Source: Oceanispirochaeta sp. (GTDB lineage: Bacteria > Spirochaetota > Spirochaetia > DSM-2461). From it: a DNA stretch of 64,000 bases. The stretch spans positions 1,472,001 through 1,536,000 of the forward strand of contig CAXXOA010000001.1 in NCBI GenBank assembly GCA_963666275.2. The letters run 5' to 3'. The notes beneath the pieces were generated by a model. That model ran no database searches, was not told where the DNA came from, and worked only from the letters and a program-made list of their open reading frames with translations. The number at the start of each line of letters is the position of its first letter. Positions within the stretch are counted from its first letter, which is position 1. The position numbers and the translations under genes were made by a program. Shown here piece by piece: positions 10,680 through 50,748 of the stretch.

Positions 10680-11111
10680 ATGAATATTGGATTAATCGGT
10701 TATGCTGCGGCTCTTGGATTGGCTGGTTTTGGTTCTGCATTCGGTGCAGGTGTGGCAGGACAGGCTGCAATCGGTGCTTGGAAAAAGGCTTTTGCCAATA
10801 ACAAACCCGCTCCCTTTCTGCTTGTTGCGTTCGTCGGTGCTCCTCTGACTCAGACAATCTACGGATTCATCCTTATGAATCAGATGATTGCGGCTATTGA
10901 AGCCGGCGGAGCGACTCTGGCTCATCTGGGAATGGGAATCTTCGGCGGTCTTGCCATGGGTGCTTCCGCCTATGCTCAGGGAAAAGCCGGTGCCGGTGCT
11001 GCAGATGCCATGGGTGAAACAGGAAAAGGTTTTGTAAACTACCTGATGGTTCTCGGTGTTATCGAGACTGTTGCCCTGTTTGCCATGGTATTCCTGATGG
11101 GTGCCCTCTAA
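10680..11111 (+). CDS. ntpK: V/A-type ATP synthase subunit K (four-helix proteolipid)
   Basis: ATG at 10680 after AAGGAGA; Gly/Ala-rich helices, PLTQTIYG, AQGK, IETVALF. Confidence 0.96.
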   Translation: MNIGLIGYAAALGLAGFGSAFGAGVAGQAAIGAWKKAFANNKPAPFLLVAFVGAPLTQTIYGFILMNQMIAAIEAGGATLAHLGMGIFGGLAMGASAYAQGKAGAGAADAMGETGKGFVNYLMVLGVIETVALFAMVFLMGAL

Positions 11112-11144
11112 TCGCAATCTGATTATCTGTAAATAAACGGAATA

Positions 11145-11180
11145 AGGCTGCTTTCCCATTCGGGAAAGCAGCTTTTTTTT
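11145..11180 (+). terminator. Intrinsic terminator of the ATPase operon
   Basis: GCTGCTTTCCC-attc-GGGAAAGCAGC followed by T8. Confidence 0.93.
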
Positions 11181-11298
11181 GTTCAGAATTTTTTGAGTCT
11201 ATAAATGTTTTTTATTGTATTTACAGATACAATTCGGATAGGCATTCTAATCTATTTAGTATACATACATTTTCCAATAGGTGTGATAGGATCATTGC

Positions 11299-12183
11299 GT
11301 GATCTATAATTATGAAACAGCGGCTAAAAAATATAATTCAGGATCATATTACTTTAATGCAAGGTGGTATGATGCCGGGACTGGTAGGTTTATATCTGAA
11401 GATCCGGCTCGTGACGGTTCAAACTGGTTCATTTACACCTACAATAACCCATTGAAATTCACCGATCCAACAGGCCTCGCTGCTTATGATGATGCTCCGG
11501 ATATGTCCCTTTCAGATGAGGATAAGGAAGAGATTCGAGCAGAGCGGGAACAAAATCAGAATGATGATGGTGAAAATAAAAAGGATGCGGAAAAAAAACC
11601 TGATGAATTATTAGAGCAGTCATGGGGTGAATTCTTTGCTGATTCGATGGAAGAATTTGTTTCAACCTTTGATCATTATACAGATTCGTATAATACAGCT
11701 AGAAATGAAGGTTTAATTGAAGGAGCTAAACAATTTACAGGAATTACTAACGTTGGTGATGCGATAGAGACCTTTGATGAAATTGGTATAGCAATAATGG
11801 GAGCAGGTGGTGTTTCTTTTGCAGGTCAAGTTGCGGCTCAATTAGAAAGTGCTACATCATGTATGGGTGCAAAAGCTGGTGCAAAAATGACCGAGTTAGG
11901 CTTAAAAACCCCAATGAAAAATGCTGGTGCTGCTCAAACACCTCGTTATTATAATCCCGAAACAGGACGTTTTGCTACTTCAGAACTTGCTGAAAGCAGA
12001 AAACAGGATGCTTATTCATCAATTGGTAAATTTAGTCGTGGTGTTGCAGAGGGTTATTTAGATGAATCTACACCAACATCAGAAAGTATTGCACCAGAAC
12101 CACGTTCAAGGCCACAAGCCGCTGGGCAAGCTGTTGGAAGAGGAATTCACCAGCTTCAGACAATTATGAAGGAGATCTTTTAG
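11299..12183 (+). CDS. Orphan (5'-truncated) Rhs-associated core plus C-terminal toxin domain
   Basis: YYFNARWYDAGTGRFISEDP...NWFIYTYNNPLKFTDPTGL at aa 17-60, then a 234-aa unrelated tail. No YD repeats upstream; start uncertain; AT-rich. Confidence 0.88.
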   Translation: MIYNYETAAKKYNSGSYYFNARWYDAGTGRFISEDPARDGSNWFIYTYNNPLKFTDPTGLAAYDDAPDMSLSDEDKEEIRAEREQNQNDDGENKKDAEKKPDELLEQSWGEFFADSMEEFVSTFDHYTDSYNTARNEGLIEGAKQFTGITNVGDAIETFDEIGIAIMGAGGVSFAGQVAAQLESATSCMGAKAGAKMTELGLKTPMKNAGAAQTPRYYNPETGRFATSELAESRKQDAYSSIGKFSRGVAEGYLDESTPTSESIAPEPRSRPQAAGQAVGRGIHQLQTIMKEIF

Positions 12184-12684
12184 GTGATAATTATTGTTAT
12201 TGCTAGTATAATATTGTTGCTTTTTTTAATGAATCGCTATTTTTTTAATAAACCTTATAAACATAAAAATATTGGACTATCACAGTTAGAAAAATATTTA
12301 ATGATTTTAAGGAATAGTGGTTATGATGGCGGTTTTATTATTATTGAGAATGCAGTTACAAAAGAATTTGTTCAATTTCAGAAACATATCGATTCAAAAG
12401 GAAATATAACCCTTAATTCATCCTTCTTTCCAGTTGATTGGAATATGAAGTATTTTGGAGCCATAAAAGAGTACTTAGAAGAACAAGATTTTGAATATGA
12501 AATTATTGAAGACGAGGATGGAAAAGAAAGCATTGAGATTTTCTGTAATGATGATTTGTTGCTATGCGTTAAGTTAGTTAAAGATATAAATACCAAAGTA
12601 TTTGGAATGAATAAAGATGGAATGTTATTTTCTATATGGTTTGAAAATGTTTGTGAAAAGGATGTTTTGATAACTACAAAATAA
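12184..12684 (+). CDS. Putative cognate immunity protein with N-terminal membrane anchor
   Basis: GTG directly follows the toxin TAG; SD AAGGAGA lies inside the toxin 3' end; hydrophobic aa 2-16; very AT-rich. Confidence 0.7.
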   Translation: MIIIVIASIILLLFLMNRYFFNKPYKHKNIGLSQLEKYLMILRNSGYDGGFIIIENAVTKEFVQFQKHIDSKGNITLNSSFFPVDWNMKYFGAIKEYLEEQDFEYEIIEDEDGKESIEIFCNDDLLLCVKLVKDINTKVFGMNKDGMLFSIWFENVCEKDVLITTK

Positions 12685-12703
12685 TTATGACTCATAACCA
12701 TGA

Positions 12704-13911
12704 TGTACAGTGACGGTATTCACCTGACAGTTGGCTAAAAAATAGAGGTGGCCATCTCATCTCCAGAAGATATAATGATTTTACCACAAATTGTTATATC
12801 AGGAGGATTCAATGGCCACCAACAGGACTGTAGCACAAAAGGCTACACGCAGAAAGATGAGCATGCTTGAACTTGCAGAGGATCTAGGAAATGTCAGTAA
12901 GGCATGTAAGATCATGGGCTATTCGAGACAGCAGTTTTACGAGATCAGAAGGAACTATCAAACCTATGGGTCTCAGGGGCTGGTAGATAAATTACCTGGT
13001 CCAAGGAATCCACATCCCAATAGGGTCTCTGATGAGGTTGAAAGGGCTATTCTGGATTATAGCCTTCAGTATCCAACACATGGCTGTGTACGCGTTGCTC
13101 AGCAATTAGCTTTAAAGAGCATATCTGTAAGCTCAGGCGGCGTCAGAGGGGTCTGGATAAGGCATAACCTAGAAAATAAGTATCAGAGACTTCTTCGGCT
13201 AGAAGAGCATCAGGGAAAGAAGAAAATCAATCTAACTGAGGACCAGATCAGACTCCTTGAACGTTTTGATCCAGAGTTTAAAGAAAGACATATTGAAACC
13301 ACATGTACGGGAGAACTTGTTTCTATAGATACATTTATGGTCGGGACGTTGAAAGGAGTCGGTAGAGTATATTTGCAGACAGTTATTGATTGTCACAACC
13401 GGTATTCATGGGGACGTTTATATACAAATAAAATGCCCGTCACAGCTGTTCATGTTCTTAATAATGATGTTTTACCATTCTATGAGGAGCATGGAGTGAA
13501 GATTAAAACAGTACTTACCGACAATGGACGTGAGTACTGTGGAAGAGAAGATCATCATCCTTTCGAGCTCTTTTTGCAGCTGGAAGAAATTGAGCATAGA
13601 ACAACTAAAGTTCGTCGTCCCCAGAGTAATGGATTCGTTGAACGGATGCATAGAACATTACTTGATGAGCACTTCAGAATCAAAGGGCGAGAGAAGTTCT
13701 ATGAGTCAGTTTCAGAGATGCAAAAGGATCTGGATATCTACTTGAAATACTATAATGAAGAGCGTGCTCATCAGGGTAGAAATATGAAAGGTAGAACACC
13801 AAAGACAGCATTTTTTGAAGGTATTCAAGAAGAGCAAAAAAGCGGTAATCCCGCATAAGAAGTTTCATTATTCTTCTGGAGAGAGTGTCAGGTGAATACT
13901 GTCATTAAACA
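12704..13911 (+). mobile_element. IS481-family insertion sequence, complete (1208 bp)
   Basis: TGT...ACA ends; 26-bp inverted repeats at 12704-12729 and 13886-13911 (22/26 identical); flanking 7-bp direct repeat ACCATGA at 12697-12703 and 13912-13918. Confidence 0.95.
12812..13858 (+). CDS. IS481-family DDE transposase
   Basis: SD AGGAGG plus ATG at 12812; N-terminal HTH (LGNVSKACKIMGYSRQQFY); DDE motifs SIDTF, LTDNGREY, NGFVER; YNEERAHQG. Confidence 0.96.
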   Translation: MATNRTVAQKATRRKMSMLELAEDLGNVSKACKIMGYSRQQFYEIRRNYQTYGSQGLVDKLPGPRNPHPNRVSDEVERAILDYSLQYPTHGCVRVAQQLALKSISVSSGGVRGVWIRHNLENKYQRLLRLEEHQGKKKINLTEDQIRLLERFDPEFKERHIETTCTGELVSIDTFMVGTLKGVGRVYLQTVIDCHNRYSWGRLYTNKMPVTAVHVLNNDVLPFYEEHGVKIKTVLTDNGREYCGREDHHPFELFLQLEEIEHRTTKVRRPQSNGFVERMHRTLLDEHFRIKGREKFYESVSEMQKDLDIYLKYYNEERAHQGRNMKGRTPKTAFFEGIQEEQKSGNPA

Positions 13912-14046
13912 ACCATGAGCTCACCTGCCCAACTGCTGAACAATTCGTTCCGGAACCGGTAAAACGGTCAGGTGCAGCGTTCTTGTTATGATAGGCATTA
14001 TATTTTTCGCCGGAATGACTTTTTCCTGGTGAAGAATTTTTTCCGG

Positions 14047-14180
14047 GGTAGTGTCAAATATCTTTCGCAAATTTCAAAGACCTCAATCATCTTATCCAGT
14101 TACTACAATACATTCTCGTCCGTATTAAAGCCTATTAGAAGATTCATATTCAGATACTTTCTTTCACTCCAGGTCGATCC
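14047..14180 (-). pseudogene. IS256-family remnant: transposase C-terminal tip plus one terminal inverted repeat
   Basis: Minus strand reads GSTWSERKYLNMNLLIGFNTDENVL* (14103-14180), like the W-x-x-R/K-x-Y-L-N-M tail of IS256 transposases. It is followed by AAATTTGCGAAAGATATTTGACACTACC (14047-14074), resembling IS256-group ends. Confidence 0.65.
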
Positions 14181-14209
14181 GTTCTGGCATCAGTAAAAAC
14201 GGTCAGCTG
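14180..14209 (+). repeat. Degenerate copy of the attC-like right arm
   Basis: CGTTCTGGCATCAGTAAAAACGGTCAGCTG aligns with CGTTCCGGAACCGGT-AAAACGGTCAGGTG (13946-13974) with 5 mismatches and 1 gap. Confidence 0.55.
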
Positions 14210-14261
14210 ATTTTCCTATAAAAAAAGCATTCACTTGAGTAGCTTGAGAAGTCTTCTGATT

Positions 14262-14618
14262 TCAAATAAAGCGCCCGGGTGATACCTGAAAGATTTCAGC
14301 TAATTGATGTGCTGTTGCCTTACTGATTCCTCTGGTTCCACGTTCCATGGCAGAAATATTCTGCTTTGCCATTCCCAGTTTCTCTCCGAGCTGAGTCTGG
14401 CTCATTCCATTTCTTTTCCTGTAGCGTTTAAGAACCTGCCCGGGAGTAGATTTATTCGCCTTTTCCCTGTACCACGCAGTTTGAGTGATATCTACAAGCT
14501 CTTCATCATTATTAATAATTTCAACATTATGGTAGTTGTCAGTAAGAAATTTCAGGAGTTTTTCCGGAATCTCTTCAGCATTTATTTCAATATGGGGCTT
14601 TTTCACGACTGCCAGCAT
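14262..14618 (-). CDS. XRE-family HTH antitoxin (HigA-like)
   Basis: LKRYRKRNGMSQTQLGEKLGMAKQNISAMERG HTH; SD GGAGG; overlaps the toxin by 32 nt. Confidence 0.88.
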   Translation of the reverse strand: MLAVVKKPHIEINAEEIPEKLLKFLTDNYHNVEIINNDEELVDITQTAWYREKANKSTPGQVLKRYRKRNGMSQTQLGEKLGMAKQNISAMERGTRGISKATAHQLAEIFQVSPGRFI

Positions 14619-14859
14619 AATAAACCTCCAATTCTAATTGGTCATCTGATATAATTCTCCAACAGGCAACCCATCTGTAATCCAAATGGCAATGGAATTC
14701 AGTCTTGTCGTTGTTCAAGGGACTGAAATTCTTCCAACCTTTCTGGATTGGTCCTGTCGCTCTCAAATCTTCTACAAGGTCAAAAAAGTCATCTTGCCGA
14801 GCGGAAGGCATCTTCTTCACATTTTTCAAGACTTTATTTTTTATCTCAACCTTGTACAT
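14587..14859 (-). CDS. RelE/HigB-like toxin
   Basis: About 90 aa, MYKVEIKNKVLK...FHCHLDYRWVACW...YYAGSREKAPY; toxin-first arrangement upstream of the HTH gene. Confidence 0.8.
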   Translation of the reverse strand: MYKVEIKNKVLKNVKKMPSARQDDFFDLVEDLRATGPIQKGWKNFSPLNNDKTEFHCHLDYRWVACWRIISDDQLELEVYYAGSREKAPY

Positions 14860-14865
14860 GTATAA

Positions 14866-14894
14866 ATAGTAATGCAAATATGATTACCTGTAAA
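14866..14894 (-). promoter_or_regulatory. Sigma70-like promoter of the TA operon with overlapping palindrome
   Basis: TTTACA-N17-TACTAT, 6 nt before ATG 14859; GTAAT-N9-ATTAC at 14869-14887. Confidence 0.6.
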
Positions 14895-15117
14895 TGTTAA
14901 AAACTTTAGTTTATGTATTTTCTCTATGATAAAATCAGTCTTTCAGATTTGCCGGATTACCATTAGTATCGAAATCGGGTTAAAAATTTCATAACTTTGG
15001 TTCTGTTTCATCCTGCTGGTTACTCCAAAACCTTTGCATTCTTCCATTTCTATCAAGAAAAATACTCTTCTGTCTTTTTCCCTAATCCTCTATAATACGG
15101 TTCATAAGGATTTTAAT

Positions 15118-16185
15118 ATGACACAGATTCATCAGGTAAAAATAGGCTCTGTTCTGATCGGAGGCGGAGCCCCGGTATCCATTCAGACTATGTGGGATAA
15201 ACCTGTAACCCGGATAGACGAAGAACTGCTGAAAACACTTGATTCTTTCCATAAAAAAGGCTGCGATATCATTCGTTTTGCCCTGCCCAGTCTCCAGGAC
15301 GTGGATGTTATCTCCCGTCTCATCCCTCAGGTGCCCATGCCTCTGGTGGGAGATATCCATTTCGATTATAAAATTGCGCTGAAAGCCATTGAGAAAGGTT
15401 TTCCCAAAATCAGGATTAATCCCGGCAATATAGGGGCGGACTGGAAGGTTCAGGAGATCATAAAAGCGGCGGCCGACAGTGGGACCGCCATCAGGATCGG
15501 AGCCAACGAAGGTTCCCTTTCGGCAGACCAGAAGAAAATCGCCGCCGATGATTCTCCCGAAGAAAGAGCCAAAGCCCTGGTGGCTGCGGCAGAGGCGAAT
15601 CTGGAACTGTTCGAACAGGCTGGTTTCAGGGATATAGTGATCTCACTCAAATCGTCGGATATCCATGTGACCTACCACAGCAACAGGCTTTTCCGGGAAC
15701 GCCACAGTTATCCGCTGCACCTGGGAATCACCGAAGCGGGACCTTTAATACCTGCAATAGTCAAATCTACGATCGGTTTGGCCGATCTTTTAAAGGAAGG
15801 GATTGGTGATACAGTCAGAATCTCCATATCAGACAATCCCGAATATGAAATCCTGGCAGCAGGGGAGTTGCTTCAGAATCTGGGGCTCCGCAAGGGACGG
15901 ATCAGGATTATTTCCTGCCCCAAATGCGGAAGATCCAGTTTTGATACCCACTCGTTCCTTGAATCTGTGAAGGAGGAACTTTATACTCTTCCCATGGATG
16001 TCTCTGTGGCTGTCATGGGATGTACAGTGAACGGTCCCGGTGAAGCCTCCCATGCAGATTTGGGAATCACAGGACATGGCAGGCAGATTCAGATTTTCCG
16101 GCATGGAAAAATCATTCGGAGGGAAGATCCTTGTTCAGCAAAAGAAGCTTTTCTGGAAGAGTTACGGCGTTTGCAGCAGGAGTAA
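15118..16185 (+). CDS. ispG: (E)-4-hydroxy-3-methylbut-2-enyl-diphosphate synthase
   Basis: DIHFDY, RINPGNIG, PLHLGITEAG, SCPKCGR, MGCTVNGPGE; ATG 15118 after AAGGA. Confidence 0.97.
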   Translation: MTQIHQVKIGSVLIGGGAPVSIQTMWDKPVTRIDEELLKTLDSFHKKGCDIIRFALPSLQDVDVISRLIPQVPMPLVGDIHFDYKIALKAIEKGFPKIRINPGNIGADWKVQEIIKAAADSGTAIRIGANEGSLSADQKKIAADDSPEERAKALVAAAEANLELFEQAGFRDIVISLKSSDIHVTYHSNRLFRERHSYPLHLGITEAGPLIPAIVKSTIGLADLLKEGIGDTVRISISDNPEYEILAAGELLQNLGLRKGRIRIISCPKCGRSSFDTHSFLESVKEELYTLPMDVSVAVMGCTVNGPGEASHADLGITGHGRQIQIFRHGKIIRREDPCSAKEAFLEELRRLQQE

Positions 16186-50511: not shown

Positions 50512-50583
<72 letters not shown>

Positions 50584-50649
50584 AAATTGTTGACATTTTT
50601 ACTTTCAGTAAAAAGATAAAACTTTATACCAATATATTTTTAATTGTGA

Positions 50650-50721
<72 letters not shown>

Positions 50722-50748
50722 ATTCGCTGTTGCCATCAGGCAAGGAGG

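What the first reader, a model, noticed from the sequence alone, without database searches (positions are those of the whole stretch)
12692..13991. IS481 inserted into the R'' end of an attC-like site, yet regenerating its AAC core
Seen: the 7-bp target duplication ACCATGA lets the empty site be rebuilt as TCATAAC-N5-GCT.CACCTG.CC ... GG(T)CAGGTG(C)AGC-N6-GTTATGA (85 nt). Both unpaired bases lie on the right arm, the mirror of class 1 integron attC sites. From memory this matches the layout of Treponema denticola chromosomal integron repeats. The IS end (..ACA) plus the duplication rebuilds AAC at 13911-13913 with correct spacing to the L box, so 13907-13991 may still fold and recombine. Known: attC targeting is described for IS1111-attC elements and group IIC-attC introns; I do not recall it for IS481. 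Inference: possible attC-directed, non-destructive insertion that lets the IS travel with cassettes.
Basis: partly seen in the sequence, partly recalled or inferred. Interest (0 to 1): 0.75.

Follow-up and report, generated by a model that had tools for sequence, protein, structure and literature searches.

The report
Stray IS481 in flipped attC-like hairpin
An ordinary jumping gene sits in, and is predicted to damage, an integron-style DNA hairpin that it likely hit by chance; the more interesting object is the hairpin, one of a family of back-to-front sites at the ends of bacterial toxin-immunity gene pairs that likely serve as gene-swapping joints.

Summary
Observation confirmed; interpretation mostly not. 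A 1,208-bp IS481 with a 7-bp duplication splits an 85-nt attC-shaped hairpin, and empty copies of that hairpin exist in two congeners. The genome's only other copy, 100% identical, sits in unrelated DNA. Only 1 of 25 homologous insertions overlaps such a hairpin (this one), and 0 of 95 element ends lie beside one. The rebuilt AAC is an accident of the ACA terminus; the predicted attC-type fold falls from 0.61/0.69 to 0.03/0.07, and no second site brackets the IS. The scan earlier noted attC-targeting IS481 lineages on other DNA; this one does not behave so. The hairpin is more interesting. It belongs to a family in 9 of 38 related genomes, mostly at the ends of Rhs toxin-immunity pairs, flipped relative to the host integron's own attC sites. 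In 8 of 31 members the G-C pair at the cut site has a compensatory change, the one position class 1 integrase tolerates when both partners match. Recombination is untested.

The parts
11181..15071 (.). Strain-specific island of about 3.9 kb between the V-type ATPase K-subunit gene and an ispG-like gene (gene names from my reading of the translations); limits approximate
   Evidence: In 9 of 10 congeners the K-subunit gene lies within 1.5 kb upstream of the ispG-like gene; the closest (L183) aligns to 10941-11180 and 15072-15300 with about 20 bp between
11299..12183 (+). Orphan Rhs core plus variable C-terminal (putative interbacterial toxin) ORF, 294 aa
   Evidence: TIGR03696 Rhs_assc_core 62.1 bits, cut-off 32.5, residues 4-60; toxin role inferred from Rhs architecture
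12184..12684 (+). Putative immunity gene, 166 aa; its stop lies 7 bp before the hairpin's left box
   Evidence: ORF; no Pfam or NCBIfam hit; immunity role inferred from position
12692..12698 (+). Original left (R'') box TCATAAC, now cut off from the rest of the hairpin
   Evidence: Sequence; same box in natural empty sites
12697..12703 (+). Left copy of the 7-bp target duplication; covers the predicted top-strand cut point AA|C
   Evidence: cut point inferred from the bulge rule in PMC5027507
12704..13911 (+). IS481-family insertion sequence, 1,208 bp; one identical copy elsewhere (G000 C1:538339-539546)
12704..12729 (+). Left terminal inverted repeat, 26 bp
12812..13858 (+). IS481 transposase, 348 aa (HTH plus rve/DDE)
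   Evidence: NF033577 258.6 bits over cut-off 224; PF13683, PF00665
13886..13911 (-). Right terminal inverted repeat, 26 bp; its last A supplies the first A of the rebuilt AAC
13912..13918 (+). Right copy of the 7-bp target duplication
13907..13991 (+). Post-insertion hairpin: AAC 13911-13913, left arm 13919-13927, unpaired T 13968, unpaired C 13975, right box GTTATGA 13985-13991
   Evidence: family model score 26.5 bits, E 0.004
14005..14050 (+). Conserved leader with a second small inverted repeat that follows most family hairpins
14166..14209 (+). Possible decayed fragment of a second hairpin of the same type (weak)
   Evidence: nhmmer E 0.032; sequence
14262..14877 (-). Two-gene module, 96 aa plus 118-aa XRE HTH; likely a type II toxin-antitoxin pair
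   Evidence: HTH_3 over cut-off for the 118-aa protein; no family for the 96-aa protein; TA role inferred; near-identical pair beside a family hairpin in G005 (L240)

Best explanation
An IS481 element with a 7-bp target duplication sits in the left box of an attC-shaped DNA hairpin; it likely landed there by chance, as this lineage tends to land in AT-rich foreign DNA, and it is predicted to weaken the site rather than spare it. The rebuilt AAC needs no mechanism: these elements end in CA, so a duplication that starts at the second A of AAC is completed by the element's last base. The hairpin itself is likely a diverged attC-type single-strand recombination site, related to the host integron's attC but turned round, so that the top strand carries the two bulges opposite AAC and would be the strand cut, at AA|C next to the upstream gene's stop codon. 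The likely enzyme is the single host IntI acting from afar, and the likely job is to swap Rhs toxin-immunity pairs and TA modules. Shown: anatomy, family, covariation, non-targeting. Predicted: folding loss. Inferred and untested: enzyme, strand and any recombination.
For: Non-targeting: the second copy has an unrelated target; contigs from three runs of one sample show only these two flanks and about double depth on the IS; 26 seven-bp duplications differ, with only weak biases (A/T at the centre in 21 of 26); 1 of 25 scored overlaps a hairpin; 0 of 95 ends lie beside one, with the scanner finding 5 of 5 intact host attC controls. The two G000 targets are 30-34% GC against about 48% for the genome. 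IS in cassette arrays are common: 12% of CALINs and 23% of integrons (PMC4889954 passage). Damage: P(attC-type fold) top/bottom 0.61/0.69 empty, 0.03/0.07 after insertion, 0.015/0.026 with 30-nt flanks; eleven natural empty loci gave 0.29-0.91 (top) and 0.13-0.87 (bottom) for the ten printed. attC-type identity: 98.7% of cells paired and 3 of 7 inner pairs with two-sided changes in 11 sites; bulged C in 32 of 32 and a second T/A bulge 6 bp further in 23 of 32, the spacing PMC5027507 gives for IntI1; the model weakly hits two host attC bottom strands (22 and 18 bits, E 0.04 and 0.34); host attCs carry C on that arm (13 of 13 listed have G on the top-strand left arm). The core pair is AAC/GTT in 23, AAG/CTT in 6 and AAT/ATT in 2 of 31, the position PMC2811028 shows to be free if partners match. 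Exchange at the left box: one immunity gene is followed by two different hairpins, switching at TCATAAC; 5 non-independent pairs share body and downstream but not upstream, 0 pairs the reverse. All 9 genomes with hairpin hits have an IntI match over cut-off.
Against: A chance hit is improbable beforehand: about 0.07% genome-wide and about 2% within AT-rich DNA for one of two copies (rough), so a weak bias cannot be excluded with n = 2; the scan picks such rarities after the fact. Homologues tested are 47-73% identical in DNA and many hosts may have no attC to hit. A predicted fold of 0.03-0.07 is far above the 1e-3 to 1e-5 of poorly recombining VCRs, so the site may keep some activity. For the hairpin: IntI is in 14 of 15 genomes tested, so co-occurrence is weak evidence, and two of the nine matches are imperfect (G004 has a stop in the match, G007 is partial). 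The 3' spacer is 6 nt in 30 of 32 family sites against 5 in all 13 host attCs. The attC-homing intron splits 8 of 13 listed host sites, but its junctions listed are all away from the 8 family sites of G000. Mixed cores within one tandem array (G006) would block recombination between neighbours. Two pairs show the same downstream DNA after different bodies, and the two G022 sites face their gene the canonical way. Invariance of the bulge and of TAA/TTA is partly built into the model and patterns that found the sites. No read joint shows excision (contigs of one sample only).
Confidence: 0.72

Rival explanations
1. One reading: this IS481 seeks attC-type sites, inserts so that AAC is rebuilt, and rides along with cassettes.
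For: It did hit such a site, at the predicted cut point, against odds of roughly 0.07-2%. Both inverted repeats contain TCACCTG, also found in the hairpin's left arm. Some IS481 members prefer palindromic targets (REP sites in P. fluorescens; PMC11708052 passages). Unchecked notes of this scan report attC-targeting IS481 lineages in other genomes.
Against: 1 of 2 identical copies, 1 of 25 homologous insertions, 0 of 95 ends; four 82%-identical copies with duplications in one spirochaete assembly show four different AT-rich targets, none a hairpin; none of those targeting notes was returned by a sequence look-up with this transposase; the fold is impaired; no bracketing second site. The shared TCACCTG starts 17 nt inside the element's end but 3 nt beyond the duplication in the target, so it does not mimic an end.
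Confidence: 0.07
2. On the hairpin's identity: it is no longer (or never was) a recombination site but a structured RNA or DNA signal, such as a 3' stability or termination stem between Rhs-immunity operons and neighbouring TA genes, perhaps derived from an attC.
For: The core triplet varies, even between neighbours in one array; sites often lie between convergent genes or as tail-to-tail pairs and are followed by a second conserved stem; the attC-homing intron has not been seen in them.
Against: A terminator would not need a single bulged C at a fixed distance, a second bulge 6 bp on, fixed 5-6-nt unpaired spacers and a freely variable middle (58-85 nt); variation falls at the one pair known to be exchangeable for an integron integrase; genes switch exactly at the left box; no Rfam family matched 8 loci at E <= 1 apart from two sub-threshold hits.
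Confidence: 0.22
3. On the hairpin's identity: it is the attachment site of the primase plus two-tyrosine-recombinase element that carries Rhs tips, and is used by those recombinases rather than by IntI.
For: In G000, G003 and G004 the hairpin marks one edge of each 8.7-9.6-kb repeat unit (TA, HTH, ParA, CHC2 primase, two XerC/D-like genes, Rhs tip, immunity).
Against: Hairpins occur in six genomes with no close copy of the second recombinase (none at E <= 1e-30 in G006 and G001; only 33-36% hits in G005, G007, G009, G022); 0 of 8 loci of distant versions of the element carry the hairpin by scanner or model (several contigs end early); the tandem structure is explained by integration at the conserved Rhs core just after the second recombinase (inference).
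Confidence: 0.08

Closest known systems
IS481 family (NCBIfam NF033577)
   Same: Single DDE transposase over the cut-off, TG..CA ends, short inverted repeats, fixed-length duplication. The family makes 2-15-bp duplications (PMC10045372 passage).
   Different: This lineage makes 7-bp duplications, where most members make 6; no fixed target sequence.
IS1111-attC group and group IIC-attC introns
   Same: A mobile element inside an attC-type site.
   Different: Those recur at one position of many attC sites (IS1111-attC seen only as citations in PMC12444791; the introns seen directly in this genome). This IS does not recur.
Treponema denticola chromosomal integron attC repeats (PMC3607928)
   Same: Left AAC box, first bulge on the right arm (my reading of Suppl. 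Table 2).
   Different: Bulge is G with 5/5 spacers there, C with mostly 5/6 or 6/6 here. Treponema intI points toward its array; the host intI here is divergent from its array. These sites are scattered, not in an array beside intI.
Host integron attC sites and CALINs of G000
   Same: CATAAC/GTTATG outer box; the family's top strand resembles their bottom strand, including the bulged C.
   Different: Host sites are 97-157 nt, 5/5 spacers, always AAC/GTT, canonical orientation, mostly intron-split; family sites are 58-85 nt, 6-nt 3' spacer, mostly flipped, variable core pair, tied to Rhs and TA genes.
Engineered EHB-inverted and G1-substituted attC sites (PMC5027507, PMC2811028)
   Same: Moving the bulges to the arm opposite AAC switches recombination to the top strand; changing the first base of GTT on both arms keeps activity only with a matching partner.
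   Different: Those are laboratory mutants tested with IntI1; these are natural, untested sites with another integrase.
Rhs C-terminal displacement and orphan toxin-immunity arrays
   Same: Orphan Rhs core, tip and immunity modules in rows.
   Different: Here most modules end in an attC-shaped hairpin; I found no paper joining the two in the listings. The general displacement model is recalled, apart from the listing of PMC5361080.

Membership tests
IS481 family | Single transposase matching the family model | tested here: met
   NF033577 258.6 bits, cut-off 224
IS481 family | TG..CA termini with inverted repeats and a target duplication | tested here: met
   26-bp repeats, 22 of 26 match; 7-bp duplication on both copies
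attC-targeting mobile elements (IS1111-attC-like behaviour) | Independent copies recur at one position in or beside attC sites | tested here: not met
   1 of 2 copies; 1 of 25 insertions; 0 of 95 ends
attC-targeting mobile elements (IS1111-attC-like behaviour) | IS110/IS1111-type or intron-encoded enzyme | tested here: not met
   DDE/rve IS481 transposase
Integron attC site (empty hairpin) | Paired R and L boxes with 5-6-nt unpaired spacers in the folded strand | tested here: met
Integron attC site (empty hairpin) | Two extrahelical bases on one arm, 6 bp apart | tested here: met
   T13968 and C13975; 23 of 32 sites show both; the first bulge is C, where PMC5027507 says usually G
Integron attC site (empty hairpin) | AAC/GTT core | tested here: inconclusive
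   Met by this site and 23 of 31 relatives; 8 of 31 carry compensatory AAG/CTT or AAT/ATT
Integron attC site (empty hairpin) | Bulges opposite AAC on the strand antisense to the upstream gene (canonical orientation) | tested here: not met
   Flipped, as in T. denticola repeats; host attCs are canonical
Integron attC site (empty hairpin) | Recombined by an IntI as a single strand | not testable with these tools
   Needs an assay; one IntI over cut-off is present 420 kb away
Integron attC site (post-insertion) | Four paired bases YAAC/GTTR and a dominant recombinogenic fold | tested here: not met
   C-A at the fourth position; P = 0.03/0.07 under a laxer 3-bp rule (criterion from PMC5371416)
CALIN | At least two clustered attC sites | tested here: not met
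   One model hit in the window; only a weak decayed fragment 175 bp on
Known RNA family | Rfam match | tested here: not met
   8 family loci, nothing near a gathering score; the window itself was not scanned

The most novel reading that the evidence does not exclude
The hairpins are working, naturally inverted attC sites through which one host integrase exchanges Rhs toxin-immunity pairs, TA modules and even 9-kb primase elements across the chromosome. The AAC, AAG and AAT core variants would be natural non-cross-reacting channels that keep this traffic apart from the main integron and from each other.
Probability: 0.25. Interest if true: 0.8.

Novelty: new variant of a known kind. Interest (0 to 1): 0.42.

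Why it matters
The IS story is ordinary and can be dropped. The hairpin family matters if it recombines. It would link integron chemistry to Rhs toxin-tip exchange. It would give natural examples of two things I saw described only as engineered attC mutants: top-strand use by bulge inversion in a host whose own integron is canonical, and a changed cut-site base pair. It would also supply short (58-85 nt) natural sites for orthogonal single-strand recombination. Because T. denticola repeats share the flipped layout, these sites offer a simple test of which strand such repeats use.

Tried and rejected
Targeting at a fixed offset outside attC (prompted): 0 of 95 ends (this test sees only intact AAC/GTT sites, so split ones rest). 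Targeting by likeness to the IS end: spacing does not fit. Other copies of this exact IS: only partial end matches in 5 of 40 relatives; three end remnants in G000 have no hairpin by eye. Reads: no RNA holder listed; no joint for an empty site or IS circle in contigs of one sample, which cannot show absence. Folding the post-insertion strand alone gave z = -0.8 and -0.7, uninformative until constrained folds were compared. An HMM of three type-A sites did not find host attCs at E <= 10. The model found no hit in 150 other genomes of the class with stricter filters, which also lost the G006 hit, so range beyond the family is open. Alignment A1 mis-set the long sites and one row had wrong coordinates; A3 held 15 opposite-strand duplicates, which I dropped, keeping the top 31 rows. 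In one search, L077 was dropped for a short flank and one of two L076 calls is doubtful (then 1 of 24). sRNA-Xcc1/symE was considered and not matched. Literature searches: IS481, attC, integron: 10 listings, none on targeting by title or abstract start; 0 papers; 1, unrelated; 4, none joining attC and Rhs by title or abstract start; 1, unrelated. The library lacks most subscription papers; Tetu and Holmes 2008 was not held.

Full report
1. The observation. The IS runs from 12704 to 13911, with 26-bp inverted repeats and a 348-aa transposase that passes the NCBIfam IS481 cut-off. ACCATGA is duplicated on both sides. Both unpaired bases (T13968, C13975) lie on the right arm, 6 bp apart. The T. 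denticola likeness holds in layout but not in detail: bulged G and 5/5 spacers there (PMC3607928, Suppl. Table 2).

2. Targeting. The genome holds exactly two full copies, 100% identical. The second has a different 7-bp duplication in AT-rich intergenic DNA with no hairpin. Contigs of three runs of one sample show only these two flanks. I collected homologues from 79 genome loci and 35 metagenome loci. Among 26 insertions with a 7-bp duplication, 25 had enough flank; 1 overlaps an attC-like hairpin, the window itself, against a background of 4 of 300 (an earlier, stricter pass gave 1 of 18). Earlier notes of the scan describe IS481 lineages that land at fixed distances beside attC (unchecked), so I tested that too: 0 of 95 distinct ends have an intact site within 60 nt, background 1 of at most 400, controls 5 of 5. 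A look-up with this transposase returned none of those notes. Against this reading, a chance hit has only about 0.07-2% prior odds for two copies, and the homologues are distant, so a slight bias is possible.

3. The rebuilt AAC. The element ends in CA and the duplication starts at the second A of AAC, so the last base of the IS completes the triplet. The rest of the left box is lost: 4 of 7 bases pair, with C-A at the fourth position that PMC5371416 requires to pair. The IS end also pairs with the right arm three bases out of register. The probability of the attC-type fold falls from 0.61/0.69 (top/bottom) to 0.03/0.07, and from 0.58/0.64 to 0.015/0.026 with flanks. That is impaired, not necessarily dead. 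If the top strand is cut at AA|C, the IS would stay with the upstream Rhs pair, which has no second site to its left, so it could not be excised as a cassette.

4. The surroundings. The site lies in a 3.9-kb island, absent at this position in 9 of 10 congeners: Rhs core with a variable tip, a putative immunity gene ending 7 bp before the hairpin, then a probable TA pair on the other strand. The genome has one true integron about 420 kb away, with intI divergent from its array. Thirteen host attC sites that my scan listed are canonical, 97-157 nt, with G bulged on the top-strand left arm; 8 are split by a group II intron.

5. The hairpin family. Pattern and covariance-model searches found related hairpins in 9 of 38 genomes of the family, 8 sites in G000. 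Most follow an Rhs-tip and immunity pair, often with the gene's stop codon inside TCATAAC (8 of 20), and many precede a TA module. In three genomes they mark one edge of tandem 8.7-9.6-kb elements with ParA, a CHC2 primase and two XerC/D-like recombinases. The pairing covaries (relatedness is not controlled). The first bulge is C in 32 of 32 and a second bulge follows 6 bp on in 23 of 32. The family's top strand resembles the host attC bottom strand. By the rule in PMC5027507 the top strand would be the one cut, at the left AAC, and natural gene switches map mostly to that box (1 pair plus 5 non-independent pairs for, 0 for the reverse, 2 ambiguous). The core pair is changed on both arms in 8 of 31 sites, while TAA/TTA is kept; PMC2811028 reports that exactly this pair can be any base if both partners match, and that a mismatch costs 1,000- to 10,000-fold. 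Detection bias applies to the kept positions, since the model was built on AAC sites. The hairpin is found without close copies of the element's recombinase and the distant elements lack it, which points to the host IntI, present in all 9 genomes but also in 5 without hairpins.

6. Mechanism, by status. Shown: IS anatomy, two copies with unrelated targets, hairpin family, covariation, link to Rhs and TA genes. Predicted: loss of the attC-type fold after insertion. Inferred: top-strand cutting by host IntI, exchange of toxin-immunity modules, separate channels by core base. Rivals are a structural RNA or DNA signal, or a site for the Xer-like pair; their confidences concern the hairpin's identity, while the 0.07 concerns targeting.

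7. What I read. Passages found by term search: PMC5371416, PMC5027507, PMC2811028 (with abstract), PMC12444791, PMC11708052, PMC10045372, PMC4889954, PMC7923331, bioRxiv 2022.02.06.479319 and 2022.09.11.507474. PMC3607928: passages, section 11 and part 1 of 4 of its supplement. PMC3001079 and PMC5361080: search listings only. Tetu and Holmes 2008 and Post and Hall 2009: citations only. bioRxiv supplements were not opened. The names V-type ATPase K subunit, ispG and group II intron come from my reading of translations and ends, not from a family search; Rhs tip displacement is recalled.

8. Verdict. The IS481-in-attC claim is a real sequence feature with an ordinary cause. Interest 0.42.

Noticed in passing
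G000 C2:1-11700 and C3:1-6200; L036-L040 (G003); L042, L043, L181, L213 (G004): Tandem 8.7-9.6-kb elements: TA, XRE HTH, ParA, 890-aa CHC2/Toprim primase, two XerC/D-like recombinases, Rhs tip, immunity. A conserved junction after the second recombinase runs into the Rhs core, suggesting integration into rhs genes with tip displacement. Relatives at 35-42% identity occur in 7 of 300 phylum genomes.
   Followed up: partly
L248 and L241 (G001), L242 (G009): Two family hairpins lie tail to tail about 60 bp apart around a palindromic spacer; in G009 one has an AAC core and the other AAG.
   Followed up: partly
L260:10956-15400 (G006): Two Rhs-tip and immunity pairs in tandem, each ending in a similar hairpin, one with AAG/CTT and one with AAC/GTT.
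   Followed up: partly
L195, L194, L247, L252, L248, L234: A subgroup of hairpins is preceded not by a gene end but by a short conserved motif ending in AGGCT; unexplained, possibly a second kind of partner site.
   Followed up: no
G000 C1:1030000-1062000; C2:1165000-1179000; C3:187000-195000 and 269000-276000: Host cassette arrays are heavily invaded by a group II intron inserted antisense in the left box; no junction listed lies at a family hairpin.
   Followed up: partly
window 12704-12729 and 13886-13911 versus 13919-13927: The IS inverted repeats and the hairpin arm share TCACCTG; probably chance.
   Followed up: partly
window 14166-14209: Weak remnant of a second type-A hairpin middle (E 0.032).
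   Followed up: no
window 14262-14877 and L240:759-1374 (G005 C82): Nearly the same two-gene module lies beside a family hairpin in another congener, in the opposite orientation to the hairpin.
   Followed up: no
G000 C2:684221, C2:666297, C3:182641: Three partial ends related to this IS; the C3 one abuts a group II intron 3' remnant.
   Followed up: partly
L045, L046, L048 (OY764868.1, 1.066-1.093 Mb): Three of five 82%-identical IS copies cluster within about 25 kb; the two with duplications sit in 22% GC DNA, which fits a preference for AT-rich islands.
   Followed up: partly
window 50512-50584 and 50650-50722: Two identical 73-nt copies 138 nt apart that look like tandem tRNA genes; not checked.
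   Followed up: no
L215 (G002) and L219 (G004): The intI matches contain one TAA stop each; may be broken or may reflect the match edge.
   Followed up: no
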